A stretch of DNA of 64,000 bases from Octopus vulgaris (lineage: Eukaryota), in assembly GCA_951406725.2 (NCBI GenBank), contig OX597820.1, positions 115,320,001 to 115,384,000 of the forward strand, read 5' to 3'. Shown here piece after piece: positions 2,720 to 51,904 of the stretch. Below the pieces are notes generated by a model, which made no database searches, was not told the DNA's origin, and was given only the letters and a program-made list of their open reading frames with translations. Position numbers and translations under genes: made by a program. Numbering within the stretch: position 1 is the first letter of the stretch; each line of letters opens with the position of its first letter.

Positions 2720-3807
2720 TTATTGTCTTTGCACAGCTTCTAATGCTTGAGATGTACTACAGTGTCAGCTGTTCACTACCAGTGAACTAGGGTAACATCC
2801 CTTATTTTTTGAGCACCATCCGGAGTATGGGAGCAATTCCAAGCAGTGCTGTTTTCTGCAAGTGCTCCACCCTTATTGCAGCCCCTATTTGTTCTATGTA
2901 CTTCTCAAGATTTTTTCTCACTATTCCCAGGGCTCAGACAATTATTGGTACTACTACCACCTTTTTCGGAGGCCACAACTGTTTAACCTCCCAAGCTAAC
3001 CTATCATATCCATCGACTTTTTTTCTTCCTTATCGCATACCTTGTTGTCAGCTGGGCTTGCTATATCTGTGATCCAGCATCGTTTGCTTTCTTTCTCAAA
3101 ACTGTCTGGTTCCCTATTCTCTATCTCATGCTCGCACTGAATCATAAAACCCCATAGGATCTTTGCATTATCATTTTTGATGATGCCTTCAGGTTTATGT
3201 TTGTACCACTTTTTTACTCTTTCAAGTCCATACTTGTTACAAAATGTCCAATGGACAATCCTTCCTAAATTGTCATGACGTCTCTTATATTCTTTCTGGG
3301 CTGGTGCCGTACATTGACTGGTGATATGCCATACAGTTTCACCATTTTGTCCACAAATTCGGCACTTATCATTTTCTGATGTGTTGTCTATTCTGTATTT
3401 GATGTAATTGGTTCTTAATGCTTGCTCTCGGATTTCCGGTTTTAAATCACTTTTAGTCATCCATAGCCATTTATTTTTTCTCTGTCTGTCTTATCTTCAA
3501 CATCCCTATGAAATTGTCCATGCGTTCTTTTCTTTATCCACTTATTTTCAGTTTCATTCATTCTCAAACACTTGTACAATGCTTTACTTTGCAATCTTCC
3601 ATCCTACACAAGCCTGACCTTCTTACTTTCAATAATAGTGATTCTGTGGCATTTTTTTACATACCATGCTATGTTGTTTTCTTCTGCTCTAATACTGTGT
3701 TCACATCCAATCAGTCTGCTTCCCCCTCTTTTTTCTTGGTTCATACAGTCTGTCTGTGTCACTTTTTGGGTGGAGTATCCCATATCTAGTCAGCAACTTC
3801 CTTGTCT
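2720..3807 (-). mobile_element. 5'-truncated R4/Dong-clade (restriction-like endonuclease) non-LTR retrotransposon, degenerate
   Basis: CRICG..ETVWHITSQC zinc knuckle, YKRRHD, KILW, PD..(D)IAS RLE motifs, PKSDTDRLY thumb remnant; flanked on both sides by (TAA)n, the known Dong/R4-type target. Confidence 0.85.
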
Positions 3808-6604: not shown

Positions 6605-6945
6605 CATCATCGTTTCGTTTAGCGTCCGCTTTCCATGCTAGCATGGGTTGGACGGTTCAACTGGGGTCTGGGAAGCCAGAAGGCTGCACCAGGCCCAGTC
6701 TGATCTGGCAATGTTTCTACGGCTGGATGCCCTTCCTAACGCCAACCACTCCATGAGTGTAGTGGGTGCTTTTTACGTGCCACCGGCACAGGTGCCAGGC
6801 AAGACTGGCAAACGGCCACGATCGGATGGTGCTTTTTACATGCCACCGGCACGGAGACCAGATGAAGCTGGCAACGGCCACGATCGGATGGTGCTTTTTA
6901 TGTGCCACCGGCACGGGGGCCAGGCAAGGCTGGCAACGGCCAGAC
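6605..6945 (-). mobile_element. RTE-LINE 3' end / derived SINE with ~3 copies of the 61-bp unit
   Basis: (CAT)n tail, CCATGCTAGCATGG, GGATGCCCTTCCTAACGCCAACC core; same family as 20175-22430. More than 15 related copies in window. Confidence 0.85.
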
Positions 6946-7157
6946 TTCTATGAAAAACATTACCTTGCCTGGAGTAAGTGACAGTTGGTGATAGGAGAGT
7001 CTTCTAGCCAGGAAAATTCTTGGGATGATGATGCTTGAAATACAGCCAAATAAGCTTTGGTGTCAAGTAGAAATGCATTAAGTGGATTTGACCGGATGGA
7101 TCATTTCCTCTCTATCTCCATTATCACTTATACACCCTCCCCCATTGCTAGCTGGAA

Positions 7158-10093: not shown

Positions 10094-10261
10094 GATTGAA
10101 CCTTCAAAAAGTTGCGGTCCATTTCGCGTGTACAGTGAGATCGATTTTTCCATGTTCACTACACTCTCCAACCTAATTAACAGCTTGCCAGATATAATTG
10201 CTAAAATTCTGAACCTCGTATTCACCCCAGCCATCATGGTTCCACTGATAGTCATCATATG
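10094..10261 (+). CDS. TMC7: TMC7-like exon (S-IEPSKSCGPFRVYSEIDFSMFTTLSNLINSLPDIIAKILNLVFTPAIMVPLIVII)
   Basis: ttctcag/gttagt; PSxxCGPF motif of TMCs. Confidence 0.93.
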
Positions 10262-10510
10262 GTTAGTAACTCTGCATGTATAAACTTTTTTGTTGTTGTT
10301 GTTGTTGTTGTTCCTCCTCCTCCCACTCAGCCTTGATTCCAGAAAACCCATCATCAAATACATCTCGTGACCAATGTGTTTTCTCATGCATAATATACTT
10401 AGAGCTGCATTACCTATATGTTCCTTTTTTTTTTTTAGACACCAGAATTTGATCTTACAAGATTTCTTTGCTATTTCTAGTAATTGAGATTACTTTGTAT
10501 GAGTGAATAT

Positions 10511-10790
10511 AGGCGCAGGAGTGGCTGTGTGGTAAGTAGCTTGTTTACCAACCACATGGTTCCGGGTTCAGTCCCACTGCGTGGCACCTTGGGCAAGTGT
10601 CTTCTACTATAGCCTCGGGCCGACCAAAGCCTTGTGAGTGGATTTGGTAGACAGAAACTGAAAGAAGCCCATCGTATGTGTTTATTTCCAGGCTTAAAAA
10701 GAAAATAAGTACTGGGGCTGATTAGTTCGACTGAAATTCCTGACGCCAGTGTTCCAGCACAGCCGTAGTCGAATGACTGAAACAAATACA
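10511..10790 (+). mobile_element. tRNA-derived SINE (AGGCGCAGGAGTGGCTGTGTGG... family)
   Basis: A box TGGCTGTGTGG, B-like GGTTCAGTCCC; copies at ~23040, 23605, 25870-26232(-), 39130-39500(-), 41250, 42646, 60120, 62740-63150(-). Confidence 0.85.
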
Positions 10791-11548: not shown

Positions 11549-11776
11549 CTTCATCATCATTATCATTTAATGTTTGTTTTCTCTGCTGGTATGGATTGGA
11601 GGGTTTGACTGGAGCTAGTAAGACCAGGGCCCACACCAGGCTCCATTTTTTGTTCTGGTATGGTTTCTACTACTGGATACTCTTCCTATTGACAGCCACT
11701 CCACAGTGTACTGATTGCTGTATATGTGGCACCAGCACCAGTATCAATTCTGCTGTGAGGGATAAGTCTTCTTGAC

Positions 11777-12740
11777 ATTATTTACAATTGACGGATATTT
11801 CTCCTCATCTTGTTTGTTGTTAACACAACGTTTCGGCTGATATACCCTCCAGCCTTCATCAGGTGTCTTGGGGAAATTTTGAACCTGGGTTCTCATTCCT
11901 AAGATATTTTTCGATGTTGTTGTTGTTGTTGTTGTTCAGGACATCCCTATACCACAAACTGACCTTCACTGGACGATACCTCAATTTCAACTCCCACCAT
12001 CCATACAGTGTAAAGAGAGGGATTTCTCAGTGCCTAAAACATTGAGCAATGAATATAAGTAGCGATCGTGATACACACCACAAAGAAATGATCAAGCTAA
12101 GTAACAATCTATTAAGCATCAACCACCCCAAAAGCATACTCTCTACTCCAATTATGAAGAAAAGGGAGGATGAAACTGATAAACTGTCCACAGTCTGTCT
12201 ACCCTATGTGAAAGGCCTCTCTGAAAAGATACAAAAGATATGTGGCCCATACGACATCAGGACAGTATTCAAGAGTAATACGACACTTCGCAAATATCTC
12301 CTTTGGGTAAAACCACCAATAGAGGAGAATATAACCAAAAACTGCATGTACTCCATCCCATGCAGCTGTGGTAGGTTATACAAAGGCAAAACATGCCGCC
12401 CCCTCAAAATAAGGGTAGAGGAACATCGCAAAGCTGCGACACGGGGAGATATTGATAAATTGGGTAAAGCTGATCATGTATGGAAAAATGGAGACCACCT
12501 CCCCCTGTGGGATGAAGTTAAAATAATAGACAGAGAACACCACTGGAAAATACGAAAACTAAAAGAAGCAGCACAAATGCTAGTTCCCCAGCATGTGGGA
12601 ACCGGTATTAAGGATGGATAGGAGAATATTAGATTTATAAGCCCTAAAATTCACTCCATAATTGCCTACAGGCATATGGTGTAGTGATTAAGAGCACAGA
12701 CTACTAACCCCAAGATTCCGAGTTCGATTCCAGACAGTAA

Positions 12741-12778
<38 letters not shown>

Positions 12779-12890
12779 TCGAAAAATACCTTAGGAATGA
12801 GAACTCAGCTGAAACATTGTGTTAACAACAAACAAGATGTGGACAAATATCTGTCAGTTGTAAGTAATGTAAATAATGTACATAATTCCC
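11777..12890 (+). mobile_element. 5'-truncated Penelope-like retroelement: RT C-terminus + GIY-YIG endonuclease (11941-12621), tRNA-like head, inverted pseudo-LTR
   Basis: TGRYLNFNSHHP, LPYVKGLSEKI, NCMYSIPCSCGRLYKGKTCRPLKIRVEEH, RKLKEA motifs; one stop; 11777-11940 is an inverted copy of 12738-12870. Confidence 0.92.
11822..11867 (-). ncRNA. Minimal hammerhead ribozyme, core intact
   Basis: GACAC-CTGATGA-A-GGCTG(10)CAGCC-GAAA-CG-TT-GTGTT on minus strand. Confidence 0.8.
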
Positions 12891-13387
12891 TATATCTTTA
12901 TTTTGTTAAATCTTCTTGAGTACAGCAAGGCACCAGATACTAAAAAGAACAACAATACTGCTAATGATAATTATTATTTCCAATTTAGACAGAACAGTAG
13001 CATTTGGCATGGAAGGATGTTGGGTGAATGTCGGAAAAATGGCCAGTATGAACAGACCAATTCTGAGGTTACACCTGTAAAAAAAAATGTAATATAAAAG
13101 GAGAAAGGTGCTCTCTACCCCTTTTTGACCAGGCTCCCATGGCTTTTATGACTTTTTCCCATTGGGAGTTTTAGTTATATTTTTTGGGGGGAGTTTTAGT
13201 TATATTTTTCGTTGTTATCTTGAATGTTTACACAGACTTTTCTTTTCGGACAAAACCCTTTCTACTTTTCGTCCTGTCTTTGTCCTTGCATGTTTTTTTT
13301 TTATTTATGTTAGCTCTTGTGGCCAATAAACCAGAATTAATTATTATTATTATTATTAATTATTCCTTTCCCTTTTTCTCTTTGTAG

Positions 13388-15326: not shown

Positions 15327-18182
15327 ATGGAAAATGGATGTTAAATGACAGTGGTGATGTATCTGTCTGTATGTATGTATGTACGAACGTATATTTGCAA
15401 TGGACGAGTCTGAAAATTAGGGTTTATAAAAAATTTCTGAAATGTAATGTTGAAACAATAAACTATTTTTTTTCCTTTATTTGAATCTGTAAAGTTGGGG
15501 ATGGAGAGGGAGAGGGGAAGGAGGGAGACACACAGACAGACTGATACAGATCTTATTTTTGGCTGTTCAGAGTCTTAAACTGAATGGTTTTGTAAAGGTC
15601 CCAATTATTGTTTGATAATTATCTGTACTGAAGAATTAAAGCGGATCAAGTAGAAGCTGATGTGTCCAGTTGTTTGTTGGGTTTTCCTCTCTCAGTAAAG
15701 TGCCTTAACATAAATGTTACATGGATAGTAAATTAGTCTAATTAAAAGCTAAAGATTAAAGTGCCTTGAGTTTAAGGACCTAAACACTGATACTAGTTGT
15801 AATAAGTATTCTAAAATGATGTCGTTTGCCTAAAGATTTCAATCTTAGAGGTGGAAGCATGTACAAAGGCTGTTGTTTCTGTATTATTTTTAGTCTATCA
15901 GTTTCGGGATTGTTTATATATCTACAGCCTTTGCTATATTGCTTCCACTACCATTAGTTATAGTAGTGGTGGTGGTAGGTGAAGATTTATTTTTATATTA
16001 GAATTACTGTTTTATTTAGAGTACGTGACAAATACACTTCTACATTAATCACACACTGTTTTTTCCTTCCACATTTATACTGCTTTTTATTCTACTGTTT
16101 AAAATCTTTAATGATTATTTTGTAAAACTATATATACAGCTTTCCTTTATTATACCATTTAATACACCATTCCACTACCTGCTGCATGTATACCACTGGT
16201 ACATGAATGTTTAACAAGAGATTAATTTCTAGCAGTGGTGCTGGGGTTGTTACTAAGATATTTTGTACACTATTGTAACCCTTTTGATAGTAACCTTCCT
16301 GAGACTGACCCTGATTTTTTGATTCAAACTTCCTGTTTAAAGTGATCTGATTTAAAAACCTTTCATAAAAAATTTATGTTAATATATACTGACTGACTCC
16401 CCACGCTGGCGGCATGTAAAAAATACCATCTGAACATGGTCGATGCCAATCCCCCCTGACTGGCCCCTGTGCCAGTGGCACGTAAAAAGCGCCATCCAAA
16501 TGTGTTCGATGCCAGTGCCACTTGATTGGCTCCCATGACTGTGGCATGTAAGAAGCACACGCTACACTCTTGGAGTGGTTGGCATTAGGAAGGGCATCCG
16601 ACTGTAGAAACCTTGCCAGATCAGATTGGAGCCTACTGGCTTGCCAGTCCCCTGTCAAACCATCCAACCCATTCCAGCATGGAAAACGGATGTTAAATGA
16701 TGATGATGTATGTTCCAAATATCAACTTAATAATGACAAAATTATTTTACTAAATTCTTCAATGTTTGCAAAATTAATTGAAACAAAAATAGTGCATTTG
16801 AAGGGAAATCCTTTGATTACCGGATAACCATATTTTTGTACTCAGTAGGTTGATGTAAGATATTGACTTACAGGTGGTTTATACTGTATCAGTATACCAA
16901 TTTTGTGTTGAGGGTGATCTGACTAACTTATAAAGAGAAAACAATAGTCTATAAACAATGTTTTGTCGTTTAAAATATAGGGATGATAATTTTGTAAAAC
17001 AGTATTAAAAAATACATTATCATAATGCATTATAATACATTATTATAACATATTATTACCTGTTCCAAATGGCAATTTTTAAAGCTTCTTCTTCACTGTA
17101 ACCAACTGTAACCATTCATATAGAGTGGAGCATGTGGATTTAACCTTTTTGTTACCATACTTCTGTTGAGATTCTCTGTGTTTCTTTCAATTGATTTTAA
17201 ATATAACAAAGAATTTAGTAAAATAACTTAGTTATCATTAAGCTAGTATTAAGAACATAAATTGTGACTAAGGTTTGGTGGAAGATTTTCATTCGGAACT
17301 TTTGAAAACAAGACATTTGTACTGCAGAGCCAGAGGCGGTTTCAGCTGGTGATTGTCTTACCTAAGGACAACTTGCAAGAGCCAAAACAAAATGAAACAA
17401 GTCCTCCACTAAGGTGAATGCCACAGAAAGCCATAACACAGTACATATTTTTTCATTCAGCTATTTTTTTATACAACCTGAATGCTTTATACAGGACTTT
17501 TTGCTCAAATATATTTAACTCTACAGAAATGAATTGTGCATGTATATATATAGAGTGTGTGTATGTGTATGATTTTCAATGTACACTCTTGTAATTGATA
17601 TGTAATAAACATTTTTCTATTGCCTTACGTTGACATTTCTTTATTCAAGTTACTTCAAGTTTCAAGCTTGTAAAGTGCAATAATCATATAGGCTTGTATA
17701 GCATTGCATGCACAATTGGGCAGTTTTCAAGCTCAATGATTGCCAGATCATGCACAGTGAGCTATACAAACCTGTGCAATTACTGCACTAGTCAAACGTG
17801 AGACTTGATGTAGCTCACATATAACTCCTGTATTCATTAACCCTTTAGTGTTCACATTATTCTGCCCAAATTAATGCTTTTTCCTCCACACTGTTTTGAA
17901 CTAATCATGCATTATCTTGTAGCTGTGAGATTTTGATGAGGTAGCTGTTAATTTTTAAAATGATATTGTAGGGTTGGTGTGAGAGACCAGATCTGGTCAG
18001 TTTGAACATAAAACAGGCTGAATACTTTTGGCCGGATTTGGCAGGTTTAAATGCTAAAGGGTTAAATGATGTACATACACAAACACACAGTTTGCCTAAA
18101 TGAAAACACCTTATCACATCCAAAACTAAAAGTATTTTTAAAAATAAAAATAAATCAACTACCTTGACTGGGAGATAACAAT

Positions 18183-18400: not shown

Positions 18401-18859
18401 GGTGTTGAGGTTCTGGGCCCTGATAACATACCTAAAATACTGCAGCTTTCTTTTCTTGACAGTTGCCAAAATCTCTGTTTCCATTTCCTCAAGTTCTGAC
18501 TCTGTTCAGTGACCAGGTCAGCTGATCCTCTCTACCCTTTGCTAGTACATTCTTTCAATTGCTTTGTGTTTAGCTGTTTGTTCTCAAGACCCAACTTTCA
18601 CCTTATTTTAAAGTAATCTAATACAGGAAGAGAGAAAATATGAATGTGGTCTCTATAGCAGCATAAGTCTATTCTCCACGCCTGAGACAATTTCTTCGGC
18701 CACTGAACCAATCTGCCAGCACATGATCTGTAAGGTGAAGAATGCGTTTGTGTAGTTGGTGTTTTGGTGAGTGGAGGTGGTGTTTGTGGGGGTGGGGTGG
18801 CAGTGTTTGTGGAATGATGGCCGTGTCAGCAAGTGGCTAAATGTTTTGGAAAAGGCTTT

Positions 18860-19330
18860 TTTTTTGTCAATTGAGACAGACTCTTTTTTTCCTTGAATGT
18901 CCACAGTGAACAGTTTTGGTGTGCTTCTAAGAACGCGATAGGGGCCAGTGCAGGGAGGTGTTAGTGGTCCCTTGACAGCATCATTTCTTACAAACATGTG
19001 AGTCCAGGTAGAAATATCCGGAGGTACTGCAGAGAAATTAGAGTGGTCGCGAGGAAGCATCAGTGGCAGGTCAGCAAAGAATAACCTGAGTTGCATGACG
19101 TAAGATGTGGGTTCCACATTCGGTAAGTTGATGGGTGTGGTCTGGAACATTGTGATCTTCATTTTAGAAGGATAAGTGTCCATGCTGTCAGCGTCGGGGT
19201 TACCATTATAAAAGGATATGTTGTATTTTCCACGTCAGTACTTTAGATGGATAGTTGTCCATGTCGGGTTACCATTATAGAAGGATAAATGTCCACATCA
19301 CGTTGGGGGTCACCAGAACCAACTGATGTT
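18860..19330 (-). pseudogene. Gypsy LTR-retrotransposon integrase C-terminal remnant
   Basis: HMFVRNDAVKGPLTPPCTGPYRVL..LFTVDIQGKKESVSID (GPY/F module). Confidence 0.7.
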
Positions 19331-19589: not shown

Positions 19590-20092
19590 AATCAGGTGAT
19601 TTAGTCCTTGATGAGAAACAAGCTGTCCATTACCCAACAGAGTTCCTTCTCTTGAGCCACCTGGAACTCCTCCACATAAACTTTTTCTGAAGGTAGGAGT
19701 CTTAATAATGCTTCTAAGAAAGTTAGATCCTCTTAAATTATGCAATGGGATAACGTTGATTGTGAAGACATTATCACCTAATGTGATAGAAGCTATCACC
19801 ATCACTGGATGTGCCTCTAGGGAAGAGGTTTTCATCCCAAGAATTCCAATTAAACCAACAGACATGCCATTTGAGTTCAAACAAACAGAATTCCCAGTGC
19901 GACTTTGCTTTGCAATGTCTTTTAATAAAGCTCAAGGTCAGACTGAAATCTCCTGGATTGCACTTCATTGAGCTTTGCTTTTCTCATGGTCAACTTTATG
20001 TTGGTTGCTTCTGGGTTGCTAGTTTGCAAGACTTCTTTCTCAATGCTCCAAACTGGAAAACAAAGAATGTTTACCCAGAAGCTCTTATGTAA
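19590..20092 (+). pseudogene. Helitron PIF1-like helicase C-terminal fragment (frameshifted)
   Basis: YPTEFL, MLLRKLDPLKLCNGITLIV, FIPRIP, FPVRLCFAMSFNKAQGQT, CFSHGQLYV, TKNVYPEAL; Helitron-like 5' end at ~19541 and CTAG|T 3' end at 23461-23464. Confidence 0.9.
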
Positions 20093-20174: not shown

Positions 20175-22430
20175 ATCATCATCATCATCATCATCATCAT
20201 TTAGCGTCCGTTTTCCATGCTAGCATGGGTTGGACGGTTTAACTGGGGTCTGTGAAGCCGGAAGGCTTCATCAGGCCCAGTCAGATTTGGCAGTGTTTCT
20301 ACGGCTGGATGCCCTTCCTAACGCCAACCACTCCGTGAGTGTAGTGGGTCCTTTTTACGTGCCACCTGCACAGGTGCCAGACAGAGCTGGCAAAAGGCCA
20401 CGAACGGATGGTGTTTTTCGTGCCACCGGCACGGGGGCCAGGCGAGGCTGGCAACGGACACGAGCGGATGGTGCTTTTACGTGCTACCGGCACGGGGGCC
20501 AGGCGAGGCTGGCAACGGACACGAGCGGATGGTGCTTTTACGTGCTACCGGCACGGGTGCCAGGCGAGGCTGGCAACGGACACGAGTGGATGGTGCTTTT
20601 ACGTGCTACCGGCACGGGGGCCACGCGAGGCTGGCAACGGACACGAGCGGATGGTGCTTTTACGTGCTACCGGCACGGGGGCCAGGCGAGGCTGGCAACG
20701 GACACGAGCGGATGGTGCTTTTACGTGCTACCGGCACGGGGGCCAGGCGAGGCTGGCAACGGACACGAGCGGATGGTGCTTTTACGTGCTACCGGCACGG
20801 GGTCCACGCGAGGCTGGCAACGGACACGAGCGGATGGTGCTTTTACGTGCTACCGGCACGGGGGCCACGCGAGGCTGGCAACGGACACGAGCGGATGGTG
20901 CTTTTACGTGCTACCGGCACGGGGGCCACTCGAGGCTGGCAACGGACACGAGTGGATGGTGCTTTTACGTGCTACCGGCACGGGGGCCACGCGAGGCTGG
21001 CAACGGACACGAGCGGATGGTGCTTTTACGTGCTACCGGCACGGGGGCCACGCGAGGCTGGCAACGGACACGAGCGGATGGTGCTTTTACGTGCTACCGG
21101 CACGGGGGCCACGCGAGGCTGGCAACGGACACGAGCGGATGGTGCTTTTACGTGCTACCGGCACGGGGGCCACGCGAGGCTGGCAACGGACACGAGCGGA
21201 TGGTGCTTTTACGTGCTACCGGCACGGGGGCCAGGCGAGGCTGGCAACGGACACGAGCGGATGGTGCTTTTACGTGCTACCGGCATGGGGGCCAGGCGAG
21301 GCTGGCAATGGACACGAGCGGATGGTGCTTTTACGTGCTACCGGCACGGGGGCCACGCGAGGCTGGCAACGGACACGAGTGGATGGTGCTTTTACGTGCT
21401 ACCGGCACGGGGGCCAGGCGAGGCTGGCAACGGACACGAGCGGATGGTGCTTTTACGTGCTACCGGCACGGGGGCCACGCGAGGCTGGCAACGGACACGA
21501 GCGGATGGTGCTTTTACGTGCTACCGGCACGGGGGCCAGGCGAGGCTGGCAACGGACACGAGCGGATGGTGCTTTTACGTGCTACCGGCACGGGGGCCAT
21601 GCGAGGCTGGCAACGGACACGAGTGGATGGTGCTTTTATGTGCTACCGGCACGGGGGCCAGGCGAGGCTGGCAACGGACACGAGTGGATGGTGCTTTTAC
21701 GTGCTACCGGCACGGGTGCCAGGCGAGGCTGGCAACGGACACGAGTGGATGGTGCTTTTATGTGCTACCGGCACGGGGGCCAGGCGAGGCTGGCAACGGA
21801 CACGAGTGGATGGTGCTTTTACGTGCTACCGGCACAGGTGCCAGGCGAGGCTGGCAACGGACACGAGTGGATGGTGCTTTTATGTGCTACCGGCACGGGG
21901 GCCAGGCGAGGCTGGCAACGGACACGAGCGGATGGTGCTTTTACGTGCTACCGGCACGGGGGCCACGCGAGGCTGGCAACGGACACGAGCAGATGGTGCT
22001 TTTACGTGCTACCGGCACGGGGGCCAGGCAGGGCTGGCAACGGACACGAACGGATGGTGCTTTTACATGCTACCAGCACGGGGGCCAGGCGAGGCTGGCA
22101 ACAGACACGAGTGGATGGTGCTTTACGTGCCTATGGCACAGATGCCAGGCGAGGCTGGCAACGGACAAACGATCGGATGGTTCGCTTAACCACAGCTGCA
22201 ATTTCCACTGATGTTGATTTGGTTTGATTTTGACTGTTCTCACTGGTCTTGCCGGGTCTTCTCACGCACAGCATACTTCCATAGGTCTCGGTCTCTAGTC
22301 ATTTCCTTGGTGAGACCTAAAGTTCGAAGGTCGTGCTTCACCACCTCGTCCCAGGTTTTCCTGGGTCTACCTCTTCCACAGGTTCCCTCAACTGCTAGAG
22401 TGTGGCACTTTTGCACACAACTATCTTCAC
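20175..22430 (-). mobile_element. RTE-clade LINE 3' fragment (ORF end + 3' UTR + (GAT)n tail) carrying expanded array
   Basis: VEGTCGRGRPRKTWDEVVKHDLRTLGL..DRDLWKYAV* at 22240-22430; tail at ~20175. Confidence 0.9.
20345..22180. repeat. GC-rich 61-bp tandem array, ~30 units
   Basis: Consensus CGGATGGTGCTTTTACGTGCTACCGGCACGGGGGCCAGGCGAGGCTGGCAACGGACACGAG. Confidence 0.97.
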
Positions 22431-23790
22431 TATATATATACATATACATACATAAATCTCAAATGATGAAAATGAGTGCTCAACGCCACATTGGTGGATA
22501 TAATTTCTTTATTTGTGAATTAAGGCTACCATTGGTTTCATGTTAAGAAAAGGAGGAAAATATCCTAGTATCTTAATAATTTTTCAAGCCGATTACATGG
22601 CAAACATCACAAAAAACTGTGACTCAGAGGTTTGCATTCCCATTGTTGGACAGTTTGACCACAGATGTCTGACAAATGGAAACGTGAAACTCTAAGTTTT
22701 TTGTGATGTTTTTGCAGCTTTAATAAAAAGGCATATTACTTCAATGTGAAATTAAATGTTTTGCTCAAGAACACAATGCACAACCAATCTGGGAATTGAA
22801 ACCATGACCTTGCAATTGCATGTGTGACATCCTTACCCACATACCTTCACTTAAAAGAACACTGGTTTTCCATATATGTATATATGCATTTATGTTTGGA
22901 AAACCAGTGTTTATTGATTTACAGATGTTTCTTTGTTATTACTCTTGTTGCTAGAAATATAGCAAACCAGCGATTGACCCATTGGAAACCTTTAACCAGC
23001 AATGCTAATGTTCACAAACTGTGATATGGAATATATATAGGCGTAGGAGTGGCTGTGTGGTAAGTAGCTTGCTTACCGGCCACATGGTTCCAGGTTCAGT
23101 CCCACTGCATGGCACCTTGAGCAAGTGTCTTCTACTATAGCCTCGGGTCAACCAAAGCCTTGTCAGTGGATTCGGTAGACGGAAACTGAAAGAAGCCTGT
23201 CGTATATCATCATCATCATCATCATCGTTTAGCATCCGTTTTCCATGCTAGCATGGGTTAGACGGTTCTACTGGGGTCTGTGAAGCCAGAAGGCTTCATC
23301 AGGCCCAGTCAAATCTGGCAGTGTTTCTATGGCTGGATGCCCTTCCTAACGCCAACCACTCCGTGAGTGTAGTGGGTGCTTTTTCTACATAACGTATTTT
23401 GCTTTTTTCTTCCAATATATAACAAACAATTTCATTCCCAAGCAACGCTGTGTGCTTCTGCTAGTTATTTTATAAATGTCTGGTACCTCAGACGCTCCCT
23501 ACATCAGGTTCACTTTCATTCTTACAACATCTCCCTCCCTGATATCCCACTAAGTACATTATCCAATTATTCCTGTTAAGCTGCAATTATCTAGAGTTCC
23601 TTCCAGGTGCAGACGTGTCTGTGTGGTAAGTAGCTTCCTTCCCAACCACATGGTTCTGGTTTCAGTCCCACAGCGTGGAATCTTGGGCAAATGTTATCTA
23701 ATATAGCCTTGAGCTGACCAAAGCTTTGTGAGTGGATTTGGTAGACAGAAACTGAAAGAAGCCTGTTGTACTCACACACACACACACACA

Positions 23791-24802: not shown

Positions 24803-25700
24803 ATCATCATCATCATCGTTTAACGTCTGCTTTCCATGCTTGCATGGGTTGGATGATTTGACTGAGGACTGGCGAACCAGATAGTTGCACCAGGCTCCAG
24901 TCTTGATCTGGCAGAGTTTCTACAGCTGGATGCCCTTCCTAATGCTAACCACTCTGAGAATGTAGTGGGTGCTTTTACGTGCCACCGGCATGAGGGCCAG
25001 TTAGGCAGTACTGGCAACGGCCATGCTCAAATGGTGTTTTTTTACATTCCACTGCACAGGAGCCAGTCCAGTGGCACCGGCAACGACCTTTCTCGAATGT
25101 TTTTTCACATGCCAGTAAGTCGACGCTGGTAACAATCATGCTCGAATGGTGCCTCTTACGTGCCACTGGCACGGAAGCCAGTTAGCTACTCTGGCAACGA
25201 TCACGCTCGGATGGTGCTCTTATCACTCCACTAGCACAGATGCCAGTCATCGAATTTGATTTCGATTTCACTTGCCTCAACAAGTCTTTGCAAACAGAGT
25301 TTAGTGTCCAATGAAGAAAAGGCACACACAAGTGGACTGGTTACACCCCTGGCATAGGCCACAAGGTTATGGTCTCACTTGCACCTGCTGAGTCTTCTCA
25401 AGCACTGCATATTTCCAGAGGTCCTGGTCAATAGTCATTGCCTCGGTGAGGCCCAGTGTTTGAAGGTCGTGCTTCACCACCTCATCCCAGGTCTTCCTAG
25501 GTCTACCTCTTCCACAGGTTCCCTCAACCGCTAGGGTGTGGCACTTTTTCACACTGCTATCTTGATCCATTCTTGCCACATGACAATACCAGCGCAGTCG
25601 TCTCTCTTGCTTACCACATCTGATGCTGCTTATGTCCAACTTTTCTCTAAAGGTACTTACACTCTGTCGAGTATGCGCACTGACATTACACATCCATCGG
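24803..25700 (-). mobile_element. RTE LINE 3' fragment
   Basis: IRWMCNVS..QERRLRWYCHVARM..GRGRPRKTWDEVV. Confidence 0.88.
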
Positions 25701-25830
25701 ATGTGTGTGTGTGTGTAGAAGGTTGAAAAGGAACACACAAGTTGATATATATATTTGGTAAAAAAGTCAAGGTAGAAAATGCTAAAATAATTTTATAAGA
25801 AACATTTCAGTACCGGTTTCAGTCATTCAG

Positions 25831-38790: not shown

Positions 38791-39900
38791 TGTAGTGGTC
38801 TAGGTAGCTAAATAGTTGAATGATCTCCCTTGCAAGAAAGATTATAGAGTAACCTCCCTTCACTAAGTTTCTTGAAGCATCTGTGTCATGAGATGTGTTT
38901 CTTAATTATTCAAGAAGCTTAGCCTTTCTCTTGGAAGTTTCTAGAATGTCTAGTGTTCCATTAATAAAAACAGCTTGCTAACCCTGCTCTTCACTTCTTA
39001 GTCAATTAAACTTAGAGCCATTCACATCATAGTTATGTCCATCTATTTTTCTACACCACATGATTGAAAGCCACCACTTAGCTGTTATTTCTACATTTTC
39101 TATCTCTGAACTTTCTTGCATACTCTTTCTCTTTTTACTCTTTTACTTGTTTCAGCCATTTGACTGTGACCATGCTGGAGCACCGCCTTTAGTCGAGCAA
39201 ATTGACCCCAGGACTTATTCTTTGTAAGCCTAGTACTTATGCTATCGGACTCTTTTGCCGAACTGCTAAATTACGGGGATGTATACACACCAGCATCAGT
39301 TGTCAAGCAATGTTGGGGGGACAAACACACACATACATATATATGATGGGGCTTCTTTCAGTTTCCATCTACCAAATCCACTCACAAAGCTTTGGTCAGC
39401 TATAGTCGAAGACACTTGCCCAAGGTGCCATGCAGTGGGACTGAATCCGGAATCATGTGGTTGGTAAGCAAGCTACTTACCACACAGCCACTCCTATGCC
39501 TATAAGTCATGCATGGGTTTGTCCAGGATAGATTACTTCATTCAATTCTACATTTTGATTCCATGTATCATCATCAACCAGTAAATAAAATATATTTTTA
39601 TGTAATAAATATATATAAAGGTCTTGAATTTATTCTTCATCTCTATATGAACTCTTGTAATAATACAATCAACACCTGATACTGACTATATATAACCACT
39701 ACAGTTCTCCGCTAGCCCACTCCACTCTTCCAGACCCATTTCTTTGCTCTTATGACATTGTCTGCTTCACTGCTCCATCACTATGTCAACCTGGATCCGA
39801 TAGCAAGTTGGCACCAGCCACAAATTTGGCCTGTGGCCCTTAGTAGAAACAAAAGCAATAAGTCAAGTTTTAATAAGAAAGAAATTTCAGTTCAACTTAC

Positions 39901-40673: not shown

Positions 40674-41239
40674 CGAGGGTGAGTCAAAAAGTAATGCTAT
40701 TTTGTTTAGGACAGGTATAATTACCAACACAGGAACATGTATCATACATCAAAGTGAAGCTGATCCTCTGTGGATCACATCCCTACATCTCAACATAGTC
40801 ACCGTTTATCTCAATAGCAATGTTCCACCTTCAAATGAGAGCATGTATCCCTGTCCCGTAAAATTCTGTTGACTGTTCTTTGAGCCACTTCTTCACTACA
40901 GTTTTCAGTTCCTCGTCACCGGAATAATTTAGCACCTTCAGACTATCATCTCTTCGGCCCCATGAAAGAGGGTTTGAGAGGCAAATCATTCCAGTGACGA
41001 GGAAGTGAAAACTGTAGTGAAGAAGTGGTTCAAACAACAGACAACAGAATTTTACAGGGCAGGGATACATGCTCTCATTCGAAGGTGGAACATTGCTATT
41101 GAGAGAAACAGTGACTATGTTGAGAAGTAGGGATGTGATCCACAGAGAACCAGCTTCATTTTGATGTATGATACATGTTCCTGTGTTGGTAATTATGCCT
41201 GTCCTAAACAAAATGGCATTACTTTTTGACTCACCCTCG
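40674..41239. mobile_element. Mariner-derived fold-back element with TA TSD
   Basis: TA|CGAGGGTGAGTCAAAAAGTAATG..CATTACTTTTTGACTCACCCTCG|TA; ~250-bp arms; LAPSDYHLFGPMKEGLRG..RWNIAIERNSDYVEK* transposase tail. Confidence 0.92.
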
Positions 41240-41666
41240 TAGATGCAGGTATAGCTGTAGAACTTTGTTTCCCAACCACATAGTTCCAAGTTCAATCCCA
41301 CTGCATGGCACCTTGGGCAACTGTTTTTTGTTTTTTTTTTGGTGGGGCTGACCAAATCTTTGAGTGGATTTGATAAACAGAAACTGAAAAAAGCCTGTTC
41401 TACATGTGTGTTTGTGTGTGTGCATGTATTTGACCCCCATTACACCTCTTGACAACTGGTGTTGGTTTGTTTACATCCCTAACCCTAACTTAGCAGTTCA
41501 GCACAAGACACCAACAGAATAAATACCAGGTTTTGAAGAAAAGGTGCTGGGGTCAATTTGTTTGACTAAAAAGTCTTCAAGGTGGTGCCCCAGAATGGCC
41601 AGAATCAAACAACTGAAACAAGAAGGTAAAAGAGAATGTAACAGAATCCACAAAGCCATACGATAC

Positions 41667-41854
41667 CTTCTGCCACGACTAACTTCAACGACATCTCCAA
41701 CACTCAGAGGAATTCTGGCTTCGTCACTACAAGGAATATTGTAAACCACACGGCAACCCTTGCTGAACGGAAACCAATAACCAGAGTAGTTTTGGACAAT
41801 ATCCAGCAGAACAACACGTTCTTTCTTTTGAGCCTTTTGAATGAGTTGCTCCAC
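41667..41854 (-). CDS. ZDHHC6: ZDHHC6 exon, SH3-like domain (VEQLIQKAQKKERVVLLDIVQNYSGYWFPFSKGCRVVYNIPCSDEARIPLSVGDVVEVSRGR)
   Basis: cag/gtatcg; EQLxQKAxK..YSG..PCxxExRI as in ZDHHC6. Confidence 0.93.
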
Positions 41855-42036
41855 CTGGTCAGAAGAGAAGAACAAAATGGAGGCACAATATTAAATGGAT
41901 GTCACTGGCAAAGACAACTTTCACCCTTTAACATTCAGGTTTCTCTGTCAAACGTAACACTTATTTATTTATATTGCTTCGAATTAATCATGCAATATCT
42001 CGTAGCTTCAAAAGTTTGACGATTTGATTGTTATAC

Positions 42037-42492
42037 GTTATTTACATTTGACGGATATTTGTCCTCATCTTGTTTGTTGTTAACACAACGTTTCAGCTGA
42101 TACACCCTCCAGCCTTCATCAGGTGTCTTGGGAAAATTTTGAACCTGGGTTCTCATTACTAAGGTATTTTTCGATGTTATTATTATAATTATTATTCAGG
42201 CCACTACTTGGAATTGAACTACGCCATATGCCCATGGACATATGGTGTAGTGGTTAAGAGCATGGGCTACTAACCCCAGATTCCAAGCTCAATTCCAGGC
42301 AGTGACCTGAATAATAATAACATTGAAAAATACCTTAGTAATGAGAACCCAGGTTCAAAATCTCCCCAAGACACCTGATGAAGGCTGGAGGGCACATCAG
42401 CCGAAACATAGTGTTAACAACAAACAAGATGAGGACAAATATCTGTCAAATGTAAATAATGTACATAATTCTCATCTCTTAAATATAAAACT
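42037..42492 (+). mobile_element. Non-autonomous tRNA-headed Penelope-like hairpin element with an HHR on each arm (42082-42127 on -, 42370-42415 on +)
   Basis: Same family as 11777-12890; apex CCATGG at 42232-42237; A box TGGTGTAGTGG; inserted into a TTAA MITE. Confidence 0.85.
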
Positions 42493-43049
42493 GATGTAAT
42501 TGTTATGTTTAGAATAATATTATAGGGTAGATGTGAGGGATCAGATCTGGCTATTTGAAACACAAGACATGTGGAATATTTTGGTCAGATATGGCAGGTT
42601 TAAATGCTGAATAGTTAAGAGTCATGGGTAAAAAAATAAAAAATTTAGGCACAGGAGTGGCTGTGTGCTAAGTAGCTTGCTTCTCCACCACATAGTTCTG
42701 GGTTCAGTCCCACTATGTAGCACCTTGGACAAGTGTCTTGTACTATAGCCTCGGGCCGACAAAGCCTTGTGAGTAAATTTGGTAGACAGAAACTGAAAGA
42801 AGCCCGTCGTATATATATATATATATATGTTTGTGTGTCTGTGTTTTTCCCCTTCAACATCACTTGACAACTGATGCTGGTGTGTTTATGTCCCCGTAAA
42901 AAAGACCGATAGAATAAGTGGTAGGCTTACAAAGAATAAGTCCTGGGGTCGATTTGCTTGACTAAAGGCAGTGCTCCAGCCTCGGAAGGGAACTTTCTAG
43001 GTGCAATCCTATAGTCATTCATGAGTGAAAGGGGTCTCTACCCTCTACT

Positions 43050-44401: not shown

Positions 44402-45095
44402 CTGAGAAGAGGAGAACCAATGACATGTGTCAGACAAGAACCTTAAAAATCAATTTGTCAAAAATATCTCAGTTTAAAGGGATGAATTATCCAGGTGGTT
44501 ACCATGGTAACTCTTGATTTACCCAACAAATTATGTTGTATGACAAACTATAAAAATTAAAGAGAAATTTGATGATATACCAGTCTCCGTATTCTTTATA
44601 ATTATTTGAAATATAGAGACACACAGACCTTCAACCCGTGCCTCGTTAGATAAGTGCCAACACACGAAACTCTCAGACCTTGAGTCACTCCGTTGTTTCT
44701 GCTAAATGTTAACAAATATATATTACAGAATTGTAAAAATGGCACTGTATAAAAAAACCCATTAGCACCGAAAGCACAAAGGAAGTTTGTTTACATATAA
44801 AAAACAAACACAAACTATTATAGTTCTTAAATTTGACAGGAAAAGGGAGGCTGATTCGCTGGTGTAAAGGTAATACACTTAGTCGTGTGAACAATGGGAT
44901 GTAGGTTCGACTCCCACACGAATAGGAGAGCCTTCTTTTTTCTGTCGAGGGCTTATATGCCCCGTTATTAAACTATTTTCCTTAGTCATTGCACGGTGAT
45001 CACTATAAGCTTTAAGCTTATATAAAAATACCATCATTATTATTTAGAGGATTGTAAAAACGGCACCGAATAAAAAAACCATTTGCAACAAAAGC

Positions 45096-50695: not shown

Positions 50696-50931
50696 CAGGG
50701 TGGCCCAAAAGTAGTTTTACAGGTATCACGTAGGCACTTTAAATCTCTTTTAAAACATTTTATTACATTTAAATTTCCATCCTACAAACTGAAAAGGGAG
50801 CTTGACAAAATTAACTAAATTAGCATAGAATAATGGTTTCATACTTTTTTTATAATTAAGATCTAATCGGTTAATGTATGGATGCGAAAGAGACAGTTGA
50901 ATAACTGTAAGCCTAGTTTTGGGCCACCCTG
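50696..50931. mobile_element. Tc1/mariner-type MITE
   Basis: TA|CAGGGTGGCCCAAAA..TTTTGGGCCACCCTG terminal inverted repeats. Confidence 0.85.
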
Positions 50932-50964
50932 CATATGAACACAAACGCCACAGTCGTTTCTTAC

Positions 50965-51096
50965 CTGAATACAAAACAACATTCCGACAGCAACAATAAC
51001 TCCAACGGCAAGTCCAATTGAAAAAACAACAATAATGAATCCAAGAATGCTCAGCTGTACCATTGGTTCACCATTCATGTGATAAAGGTAATAAGG
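50965..51096 (-). CDS. ZDHHC6: ZDHHC6 exon, TM4 (PYYLYHMNGEPMVQLSILGFIIVVFSIGLAVGVIVAVGMLFCIQ)
   Basis: cag/gtaaga; GLAxGxxxAVGMLFxIQ matches ZDHHC6. Confidence 0.93.
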
Positions 51097-51904
51097 CTGC
51101 AAAGAGAGAAGAGAAAATAATTCACCTTTACTGCCACAAACAATATTACAATTATTATTATTATTATTATTATTCATAGTTTAACGTCTGTTTTCCATGC
51201 TGGCATGGGTTAGACGGTTCGACTAGGGTCTGGGAAGCTTGAGGCTGCACTAGGCCCCAATCTGATCTGGCAGTGTTTCTACAGCTAGACGCCCTTCCTA
51301 ACGCCAACCACTCTGAGAGTATAGTGGGTGCCCTATATGTGCCACCAGCACAAGGGGCCACAGGAGCTGGCATCGACTACGATTGGATGGTGCCTTTCAC
51401 GTGCCACCGGCACAGAAGCCAGTCATAGTGACACTGGCATCGGCCATGTCTGGATGGTGCTTTTTACGTGCTATCAGCACGGGGGTCACAACTACAATTA
51501 CCATTTGATTTGATTTTGATATTGTTGTACTTGACTCAATAGGTGTAGGTTACAGCTGTAGACTCATTTTATTTCCTGGGTCTTCTCAGTCACAGCATAC
51601 CTCCAGAGGTCTCGATCTTTTTTCTCCATTTTTTTATTAATTAAATATATACATATATGTATCATCATCATCATCATTTAATGTCCATTTTCCATGCTGG
51701 CATGGGTTGGACGGTTTGACTGAGGTCTGGAGAGCCAGGAGGCTGCACCAGGTTACAATCTAAACTGGCAATGTTTCTACAGCTAGATTTTCTTCCTAAC
51801 ACCAATCACTCCAAGAGTGTAGCAGATGCTTGTTACGTTCGGATAGTGCTTTTTATGTGCCACTAGCATGGGTGCCAGTCAGGTGGACCTGGCATCTGCT
51901 GTAA

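What the first reader, a model, noticed from the sequence alone, without database searches (positions are those of the whole stretch)
11777..12890. Coding Penelope copy carries the same tRNA-like promoter between its ORF and pseudo-LTR
Seen: about 50 bp after the GIY-YIG ORF stop (12621) is GGCATATGGTGTAGTGATTAAGAGCACAGACTACTAACCCCAAGATTCCGAGTTCGATTCC, with a good B box. The same pLTR as at 42300-42490 follows. This ties the non-coding hairpin element to its probable autonomous partner within one window. Inference: this PLE family captured a tRNA-derived internal Pol III promoter in its terminal repeat. The apparent anticodon ACT is not a normal eukaryotic tRNA, so the head is a derivative rather than a gene.
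Basis: partly seen in the sequence, partly recalled or inferred. Interest (0 to 1): 0.75.

Follow-up and report, generated by a model that had tools for sequence, protein, structure and literature searches.

The report
Penelope retrotransposon with built-in tRNA promoter
An abundant family of Penelope-like retrotransposons in this animal carries a decayed tRNA look-alike at the very start of its terminal repeat, in protein-coding and short non-coding copies alike, and this likely works as an RNA polymerase III promoter through which the element would spawn its own SINE-like offspring.

Summary
The tRNA-like head is real. A box, anticodon loop and B box lie in exact tRNA register (1 exact hit in the window, 0 in 25 shuffles), but the stems are decayed and ARAGORN and Rfam find no tRNA.

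Corrections: the stop at 12621 comes from a 35-base deletion (family stop 12638-40). The copy is truncated and dead. Its 3' pseudo-LTR has lost the hammerhead core.

Read depth does not fall between ORF end and head, then about doubles at the head's first base, where ORF-less copies begin.

New here: the head is the 5' end of the pseudo-LTR. It lies 104-126 bases upstream of an ATG that likely opens the ORF through a minimal hammerhead, which is where Penelope keeps its promoter.

Best reading (0.6): a Penelope/Poseidon-type family took a Pol III promoter as its transcript start, and its own RT copies these short RNAs. Pol III transcription is not shown. Rival: a passenger head, with self-priming at a small palindrome. 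Ten literature searches found no ORF-bearing PLE with such a head; Repbase and Dfam could not be searched.

The parts
11775..11943 (-). Inverted 5' pLTR copy, cut before the head. ATG at 11896; ends 122 bases after it.
   Evidence: 2568 and 2013 RNA reads and 272 and 353 contigs leave the family at 11775 into unlike AT-rich flanks
11822..11867 (-). Minimal type I hammerhead motif with intact core: stem I GACAC/GTGTT, CTGATGA, extra A, stem II GGCTG/CAGCC, GAAA, palindromic CG
   Evidence: stem II forms in the fold, z -2.4; read by eye against the consensus in PMC4209133; no Rfam hit
11941..12640 (+). 5'-truncated, dead PLE ORF (RT thumb, linker, GIY-YIG with CxC and two His). TGA at 12043-45; 35-base deletion at 12583; family stop TAA 12638-40.
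   Evidence: 54% identical over 220 aa to full-length P0013, which has RVT_1
12641..12670 (+). 30-base spacer. Its last 8 bases and the head's first 4 form a small inverted repeat (TGCC, four bases, GGCA).
   Evidence: family letter 12667 T>C
12671..12742 (+). tRNA-like head: A box 12677-87, loop CT-ACT-AA 12701-07, B box 12722-30; stems decayed
12743..12776 (+). (AAT)n run inside the pLTR
12777..12898 (+). Rest of the 3' pLTR: ATG at 12797, 48-base deletion removing the hammerhead core, part of the tail
   Evidence: 384 and 393 reads run on past 12889 into the tail
42034..42232 (-). Left arm of the non-coding hairpin element: head with a 38-base deletion, then pLTR; ATG 42156; hammerhead core at 42122; ends at about +122
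42219..42250 (.). Palindromic centre of the hairpin, axis 42234/42235 (14 of 16 pairs), just before the head
   Evidence: the same CCCATG junction before the head in 269 reads (X24) and 75 and 85 contigs (X2, X5)
42237..42308 (+). Second tRNA-like head: A box keeps G18-G19; B box has T54>C
42309..42492 (+). Right-arm pLTR: ATG 42341, mutated hammerhead (core at 42375), about 30-base tail

Best explanation
This Penelope-like family carries a decayed tRNA-like module as the first 70 bases of its pseudo-LTR, in ORF-bearing and ORF-less copies alike, and the module likely acts as an internal RNA polymerase III promoter whose short RNAs would be copied by the family's own RT-endonuclease into SINE-like insertions. 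SHOWN: the order is ORF stop, 30 bases, head, AAT run, ATG, minimal hammerhead, main end at +122, optional tail of about 30 bases. About half or more of the head-covering RNA depth comes from copies that start at the head. INFERRED: (1) A tRNA or SINE head entered a master element once, just after the ORF stop. (2) Pol III starts at or a few bases before 12671. The unit has no T4 run, so transcription runs through the RT binding and start sites into the flank. (3) The PLE protein nicks AT-rich DNA and starts reverse transcription inside the RNA at +122 or about +152, as the anole element PAc does in vitro (RT start at +111-118; templates cut to the pLTR/ORF start still work; PMC11167929). (4) At the RNA's 5' end the cDNA either folds back on the small TGCC..GGCA repeat, giving the hairpin, or joins a truncated inverted pLTR. 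(5) The protein itself probably still comes from Pol II or read-through RNA of tandem masters.
For: Head on ORF-bearing copies: depth does not drop from ORF end to spacer (654 to 784; 341 to 384), then rises to 1483 and 1011 in the head. Only 269 reads have a loose end before 12671 in X24, and none is among the six listed for X23 (smallest listed 300), so most spacer reads must run into the head. 117-125 contigs cover 12615 and 12667 in each of X2 and X5. Fixed 5' end: 4 of the 10 listed joints from an inverted pLTR to a forward site land at 12671-73, in a range of about 760 bases. Boxes kept, stems lost: using window copies and listed majority letters, the A and B boxes match the SINE promoter consensus TGGCNNAGTGG-N30-35-GGTTCGANNCC (PMC8969392) at all but its first B-box G, with 33 bases between, while about 5 of 14 D, anticodon and T stem pairs are broken (my count). 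Promoter position: the pLTR ATG reads TPDEGWRVYQPKRCVNN, 13 of 22 identical to residues 18-39 of full-length P0013 (E 2e-6). In other PLEs the pLTR holds the promoter and the first codons (PMC2377424, PMC3846280). No T4 on the sense strand of head+pLTR.
Against: No RNA evidence for Pol III. In X23 and X24 both orientations are about equal, and no start peak is listed at the head; 150-base cDNA libraries would hardly show one. The lack of T4 is not significant (P 0.12 by base shuffle, 0.82 by synonymous shuffle). No tool links the head to a tRNA. Palindromes at the 5' end of pLTRs and head-to-head junctions occur in rotifer PLEs without any tRNA (PMC3846280). The lay lists are cut: 2270 loose ends and 486 joint rows are not shown, and rows at the AAT run were dropped, so a minor head-less ORF subfamily could be hidden. 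Only copies at least 80% alike were counted. No full-length copy was seen. The P0013 match is partly forced by conserved hammerhead letters.
Confidence: 0.6

Rival explanations
1. The head is a passenger: an old tRNA or SINE fragment fixed in the master's UTR with no promoter role. All RNA is Pol II read-through, and short elements end at the head because cDNA self-primes at the small TGCC..GGCA inverted repeat.
For: The commonest junction before the head is palindromic. Self-priming at pLTR palindromes is proposed for rotifer PLEs (PMC3846280, passages). No Pol III start is seen in RNA.
Against: Boxes are intact while about 5 of 14 stem pairs are broken (roughly P 0.05 if decay were even; my estimate). 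Four listed joints reach 12671-73 from truncated pLTRs without a mirrored head, though deletions from hairpins could also give these.
Confidence: 0.2
2. Pol III started at the head also makes the full-length, ORF-coding RNA in tandem masters, so the autonomous element itself is Pol III-driven. Short copies come from RT starting at the first internal site of that same RNA.
For: The head sits where D. virilis Penelope has its internal promoter and start site (PMC2377424, passages). There is no T4 in 958 sense-strand bases. Internal RT initiation (PMC11167929) would give short copies from a long RNA.
Against: The T4 absence is not significant, and the other ~1.8 kb of the ORF was not seen. Uncapped RNA translates poorly (established knowledge). 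Kojima argues that autonomous partners need Pol II (PMC10886601, passage).
Confidence: 0.13
3. An independent tRNA-head SINE with a PLE tail inserted behind this one ORF copy (or a few), because PLE nucleases cut near their own ORF-pLTR junction.
For: PAc cleaves near its ORF-pLTR junction (PMC11167929). Rows at the AAT run were dropped from the lay.
Against: Hundreds of reads with differing letters and over 100 contigs per run cover the spacer, and the read counts require most of them to cross into the head. This may still be how the master first gained the head.
Confidence: 0.05
4. The head is not tRNA-derived, and the boxes are chance.
For: No Rfam, ARAGORN or BLAST tRNA hit, and no cloverleaf fold.
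Against: Three landmarks in exact tRNA register, 0 in 25 shuffles. Weak nhmmer likeness (E 0.03-0.3) to heads of another repeat in the window.
Confidence: 0.04

Closest known systems
Penelope/Poseidon PLEs (D. virilis Penelope; anole PAc; Adineta Pen families)
   Same: RT followed by C-terminal GIY-YIG; pLTR holding the ORF start and a minimal hammerhead; inverted 5' pLTR; 30-40-base optional tail; AT-rich targets; palindromic head-to-head junctions (PMC8557442, PMC2377424, PMC3846280 passages; PMC11167929 main text).
   Different: Their described pLTR promoters are Pol II-type (DPE, or TATA and Inr). 'tRNA' has 0 occurrences in PMC11167929, PMC2377424, PMC3846280 and PMC4209133, and 1 unrelated one (Sec tRNA) in PMC8557442.
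Schistosoma Sm-alpha / Sj-alpha SINE-like hammerhead repeats
   Same: A Pol III-type promoter followed by a hammerhead (PMC6765202 passage); a tRNA-Glu part in the S. mansoni unit (PMC4918200 figure legend).
   Different: Tandem and non-coding, with canonical hammerheads. No ORF-bearing partner with the same head is named in the passages read. Here the coding family itself carries the head, and the short form is a head-to-head hairpin.
Helenus / Cassandra / Ajax (TRIMp3)
   Same: A small-RNA-derived Pol III promoter inside a terminal repeat; proposed origin by SINE insertion (PMC10886601, abstract and passages).
   Different: These are non-autonomous LTR elements, and their autonomous partners do not share the promoter. 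This one is a PLE and the partner shares it.
Animal non-LTR retrozymes
   Same: Short hammerhead-bearing derivatives of PLE pLTRs, thought to be moved by PLEs (PMC7229834 passages; bioRxiv 10.64898/2026.07.22.740005, part 1 of 5 and passages).
   Different: Head-to-tail tandem arrays making circular RNA. No tRNA head or promoter is mentioned in the preprint (0 occurrences). No tandem array was seen here.
tRNA-derived SINEs, including octopus OR1 and OR2
   Same: A tRNA head with A and B boxes, and a 3' part shared with the mobilising element.
   Different: The partner here is a PLE and carries the head too. OR1 and OR2 are each listed as CORE SINEs (PMC4824008, PMC4758252 passages). The 1994 paper describing the three octopus families was not held, so identity with one of them is not excluded.

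Membership tests
PLE, Penelope/Poseidon clade | C-terminal GIY-YIG with CCHH motif after the RT | tested here: met
   CMYSIPCSCGRLYKG..EEHR..DHVW; full-length relatives carry RVT_1 upstream. Pfam does not score the window piece itself.
PLE, Penelope/Poseidon clade | No CX2-5CxxC linker zinc finger (present in Neptune and Nematis) | tested here: met
   Absent in the window piece and in 28 of 30 relatives; criterion from PMC8557442.
PLE, Penelope/Poseidon clade | pLTR with ORF start, optional 30-40-base tail, inverted 5' copy | tested here: met
PLE, Penelope/Poseidon clade | Minimal type I hammerhead in the pLTR | tested here: met
   Motif read by eye at 11822-67 (-) and 42082-127 (-); no Rfam hit; cleavage untested.
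PLE, Penelope/Poseidon clade | RT phylogeny with named references | not testable with these tools
   The tree of 30 unnamed rows places the window piece with P0022 (100/99) but holds no named reference.
tRNA-derived SINE | A and B boxes at tRNA spacing near the 5' end | tested here: met
tRNA-derived SINE | Homology of the head to a tRNA | tested here: inconclusive
   The register fits; ARAGORN, Rfam and phage BLAST give nothing; no eukaryotic tRNA set was at hand.
tRNA-derived SINE | Transcribed by Pol III | not testable with these tools
   RNA lay shows both orientations and no start peak.
tRNA-derived SINE | 3' part shared with the mobilising element | tested here: met
   pLTR 130-133 of 141 identical between the coding and hairpin loci.
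tRNA-derived SINE | Head of separate origin, absent from the partner | tested here: not met
   ORF-bearing copies carry the head.
tRNA-derived SINE | Target-site duplication | tested here: inconclusive
   8-mers recur left and right of both loci, but about 5 and 20 bases off the right ends.
Non-LTR retrozyme | Head-to-tail tandem units, each with a hammerhead | tested here: not met
   Both loci are inverted, not tandem; arrays elsewhere in the genome could not be examined.
TRIMp3 (Helenus) | Two direct LTRs with PBS and PPT | tested here: not met
   The repeats are inverted PLE pLTRs, not direct LTRs; PBS and PPT were not searched.

The most novel reading that the evidence does not exclude
An autonomous retrotransposon run by RNA polymerase III. 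The tRNA-derived head has replaced the Pol II promoter of this Penelope family and drives both the protein-coding RNA and a mass of short SINE-like copies, so LINE-like and SINE-like elements come from one transcription unit.
Probability: 0.13. Interest if true: 0.88.

Novelty: new variant of a known kind. Interest (0 to 1): 0.6.

Why it matters
SINEs normally arise when a tRNA head is joined to the tail of a separate LINE. Here the autonomous element itself holds the head, at its transcript start. Because PLE reverse transcription starts inside the first 120-150 bases of the ORF, any RNA begun at the head would be a ready template. That offers a direct route to PLE-dependent SINEs and a possible origin for Sm-alpha-like repeats. 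It gives a test of where PLE RNAs start and how head-to-head hairpins form, both open questions. It also matters for annotation: such copies would be split between 'SINE' and 'Penelope'. The family is abundant: 11,441 of 12.9 million reads in X23, and about 40,000 contigs laid per DNA run.

Tried and rejected
No whole genome is held for this window, so no full-length copy or copy count could be obtained.

The search for related loci found nothing in viral contigs or genome contigs, and two distant loci at 28-29% identity in metagenomes, which I did not examine further. The pLTR pattern gave 0 matches in genome contigs and one chance match in a phage-like contig, L003 (rejected).

Rfam on four stretches gave only chance hits. 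BLAST of both heads against phages found no tRNA. The search with the 41-aa pLTR peptide found no candidate, which is weak evidence. PDB gave only weak group II RT hits.

The run search noted 'no RNA holder listed' on record; I do not use this either way. T4 depletion as a sign of Pol III was not significant. tblastn of four long relatives found no other ORF piece in the window. The single end peak at 12811 (13 molecules) sits at this copy's deletion and is treated as an artefact. Searches of earlier findings by sequence and place returned nothing.

Ten literature searches listed no paper on an ORF-bearing PLE with a tRNA head. I read passages of 15 papers, not all hits. Repbase, Dfam and subscription journals were out of reach. 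The O. vulgaris supplement gives class totals only, and repeat libraries or supplements I did not see could already hold this family.

Full report
WHAT IS IN THE SEQUENCE. The locus 11775-12898 is one Penelope-like insertion. From left to right it has an inverted pLTR piece (11775-11943), the last ~233 codons of an RT-thumb/GIY-YIG ORF (11941-12640), a 30-base spacer, a tRNA-like head (12671-12742), an AAT run and a pLTR. The ORF piece is 54% identical over 220 aa to the 847-aa protein P0013 and 66% over 219 aa to P0003; both have an RVT_1 domain. The copy is dead: TGA at 12043-45 and a 35-base deletion at 12583. Relatives end 'LLSRPS..MNSIWEPV', 386 reads leave the copy at 12583, and a contig shows 40 letters in place of 5. 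The family stop is 12638-40. The 3' pLTR lacks 48 bases, including the hammerhead core. The locus 42034-42492 is a non-coding hairpin of the same head+pLTR unit, with its axis at 42234/5. The pLTRs of the two loci are 130-133 of 141 identical and the heads 62 of 72.

IS THE HEAD MORE THAN CHANCE? A loose A+B pair is not: 9 seen, 6.9 expected. But T8, C32 and G53 lie 24 and 45 bases apart, as in tRNA numbering. The joint pattern has one exact hit in the window and none in 25 shuffles (pattern written after seeing the site). Against this, ARAGORN, Rfam and BLAST against phages find no tRNA, and neither copy folds as a cloverleaf. Each window copy keeps one box better than the other. The reads restore G at 12687 (665 of 700 and 755 of 783 in X23; 452 of 469 and 499 of 542 in X24) and show TGGCGTAGTGG in a loose-end row. 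About 5 of 14 D, anticodon and T stem pairs stay broken by my count. Boxes kept and stems lost is the usual SINE pattern (established knowledge). The parent tRNA is not identified. ACT is not a standard eukaryotic anticodon (recalled).

DO ORF-BEARING COPIES CARRY IT? Fourteen listed runs under six coded organism labels hold 45-59% of the words of this stretch. I laid 4 of the 24 listed runs at 80% likeness: X23 and X24 (raw RNA, organism D, one study), X2 (organism A contigs) and X5 (organism C contigs). Depth at ORF end (12615), spacer (12667) and head (12687) is 654, 784, 1483 in X23 and 341, 384, 1011 in X24. If ORF copies lacked the head, nearly all head reads would have a loose 5' end at 12671. 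X24 has 269, and X23 has none among its six listed loose ends (smallest 300). No loose end leaving the spacer is listed in any run. 117-125 contigs per DNA run cover 12615 and 12667. One contig enters in the spacer from an inverted pLTR with 60 letters on its shorter side, so it crosses into the head. Caveats: this argument assumes the lists are ranked by support; 2270 loose ends and 486 joint rows are not shown; rows at the AAT run were dropped; RNA depth weights expressed loci; older subfamilies under 80% likeness were not counted. Three joints have the same coordinates in A and C, so these are close relatives and not independent lineages.

WHERE THE HEAD SITS. The step-up in depth at 12671 marks a large class of ORF-less copies. 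Their commonest left junction ends in TATGCCCATG (269 reads in X24; 75 and 85 contigs), the palindromic centre seen at 42234. Also, 4 of the 10 listed joints from a truncated inverted pLTR to a forward site land at 12671-73. So the head is the 5' end of the pLTR. Downstream, an ATG 104-126 bases after the head's start reads MRTQV.NFPKTPDEGWRVYQPKRCVNN, matching residues 18-39 of P0013 (13 of 22, E 2e-6; partly forced by hammerhead letters). This frame runs through a minimal type I hammerhead with the marks given in PMC4209133 (part 1 of 4 and passages): an extra base before stem II, a G-C first pair, and a palindromic CG. Insertions end sharply at +122 (2568 and 2013 reads), with an optional tail of about 30 bases (300 and 283 reads) and AT-rich flanks. 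This mirrors PAc, whose RT starts 111-118 bases into the ORF and accepts templates cut down to the pLTR/ORF start (PMC11167929, main text read). In D. virilis and Adineta the pLTR holds a Pol II-type promoter (PMC2377424, PMC3846280, passages).

MECHANISM. The most likely reading (0.6) is that a master element gained a tRNA or SINE head behind its stop codon. In the tandem arrangement this is the start of the pLTR. Pol III would begin there and meet no T4 in the unit, making an RNA that holds the RT start sites. The family's protein would insert it at AT-rich nicks. At the RNA's 5' end the cDNA would fold back on TGCC..GGCA to give hairpins, or join a truncated inverted pLTR. The anatomy and the fixed ends are shown. 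Pol III use, trans-mobilisation and fold-back are inferred. The RNA runs say nothing on the polymerase: both orientations are about equal and no start peak is listed. The main rival (0.2) is a passenger head with self-priming alone fixing the boundary, since rotifer pLTRs also begin with palindromes (PMC3846280). A bolder rival (0.13) is that Pol III makes the coding RNA too. The T4 test does not decide it (P 0.12 and 0.82), and most of the ORF was not seen.

COMPARISON WITH KNOWN SYSTEMS. By motif the element is Penelope/Poseidon-type: CCHH present, CX2-5CxxC absent (criteria from PMC8557442, passages). A tree with named references was not possible. The short form works like a SINE but fails one membership feature, since its partner carries the head too. 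It is not a tandem retrozyme (PMC7229834, passages; bioRxiv 10.64898/2026.07.22.740005, part 1 of 5 and passages). The nearest analogues are the schistosome Pol III-promoter-plus-hammerhead repeats (PMC6765202, PMC4918200, passages) and tRNA-in-LTR Helenus (PMC10886601, abstract and passages); both are non-autonomous. I also read passages of PMC4758252, PMC4824008, PMC3531059, PMC8969392 and PMC13282606 (plus a search of its supplement). Ohshima and Okada 1994 was not held and not seen. Ten searches listed no report of an ORF-bearing PLE with a tRNA head. Repbase and Dfam were not searchable, so the family may be catalogued there. Earlier AI notes of this scan describe non-coding tRNA-bearing, PLE-type inserts in other animals. 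They are unchecked leads that the tRNA-PLE link recurs, and I do not count them as support.

VERDICT. A real, family-wide feature and a new variant of a known kind. Interest 0.6. Promoter function remains to be shown.

Noticed in passing
window 20353-22181: Tandem array of 30 copies of a 61-base GC-rich unit, 95% matches, giving long spurious ORFs; similar pieces at 6642-6953 and 16374-16721.
   Followed up: partly
window 19615-19971 (+): Pif1 helicase 2B-domain fragment (PF21530, E 8e-11), probably a Helitron remnant.
   Followed up: partly
window 10095-10262 (+): Exon-like frame IEPSKSCGPF... between AG and GT. It looks like a TMC-family exon (recalled; no Pfam hit), which would put the coding PLE copy in or next to that gene.
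   Followed up: partly
window 41498-41890 (-) and 50863-51180 (-): Exon-like frames recalling a ZDHHC6-type palmitoyltransferase (recalled; Pfam did not confirm). The hairpin at 42034-42492 would lie in its intron.
   Followed up: partly
window 10515-10680, 23043-23170, 41232-41350, 42648-42810; also near 39483, 26226, 63138 (-): Another SINE-like repeat with A/B-box-like head; weak nhmmer likeness to the PLE head (E 0.03-6).
   Followed up: partly
window 44845-44930 (+): Isolated tRNA-like stretch with an exact B box followed soon by a T7 run; not called by ARAGORN.
   Followed up: no
window 2996-3490 (-), 18653-19234 (-), 25367-25792 (-), 40831-41439 (-): Decayed transposon-like frames (non-LTR zinc finger, weak zf-RVT at E 0.04; integrase-, RTE- and mariner-like by recall only).
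   Followed up: partly
window 12357: 342 RNA reads in X23 share one upstream flank (agreement 0.99): one 5'-truncated copy of this family sits in a strongly expressed transcript in that sample.
   Followed up: no
window 11876 and 12701: Loose-end rows (339 and 302 reads; 186 reads) show a diverged sister subfamily with a different pLTR middle and a variant head that still keeps the A box.
   Followed up: no
P0013 residues 15-43: An unrelated-source full-length PLE protein also reads through a hammerhead-like stretch in the same frame near its N-terminus.
   Followed up: partly
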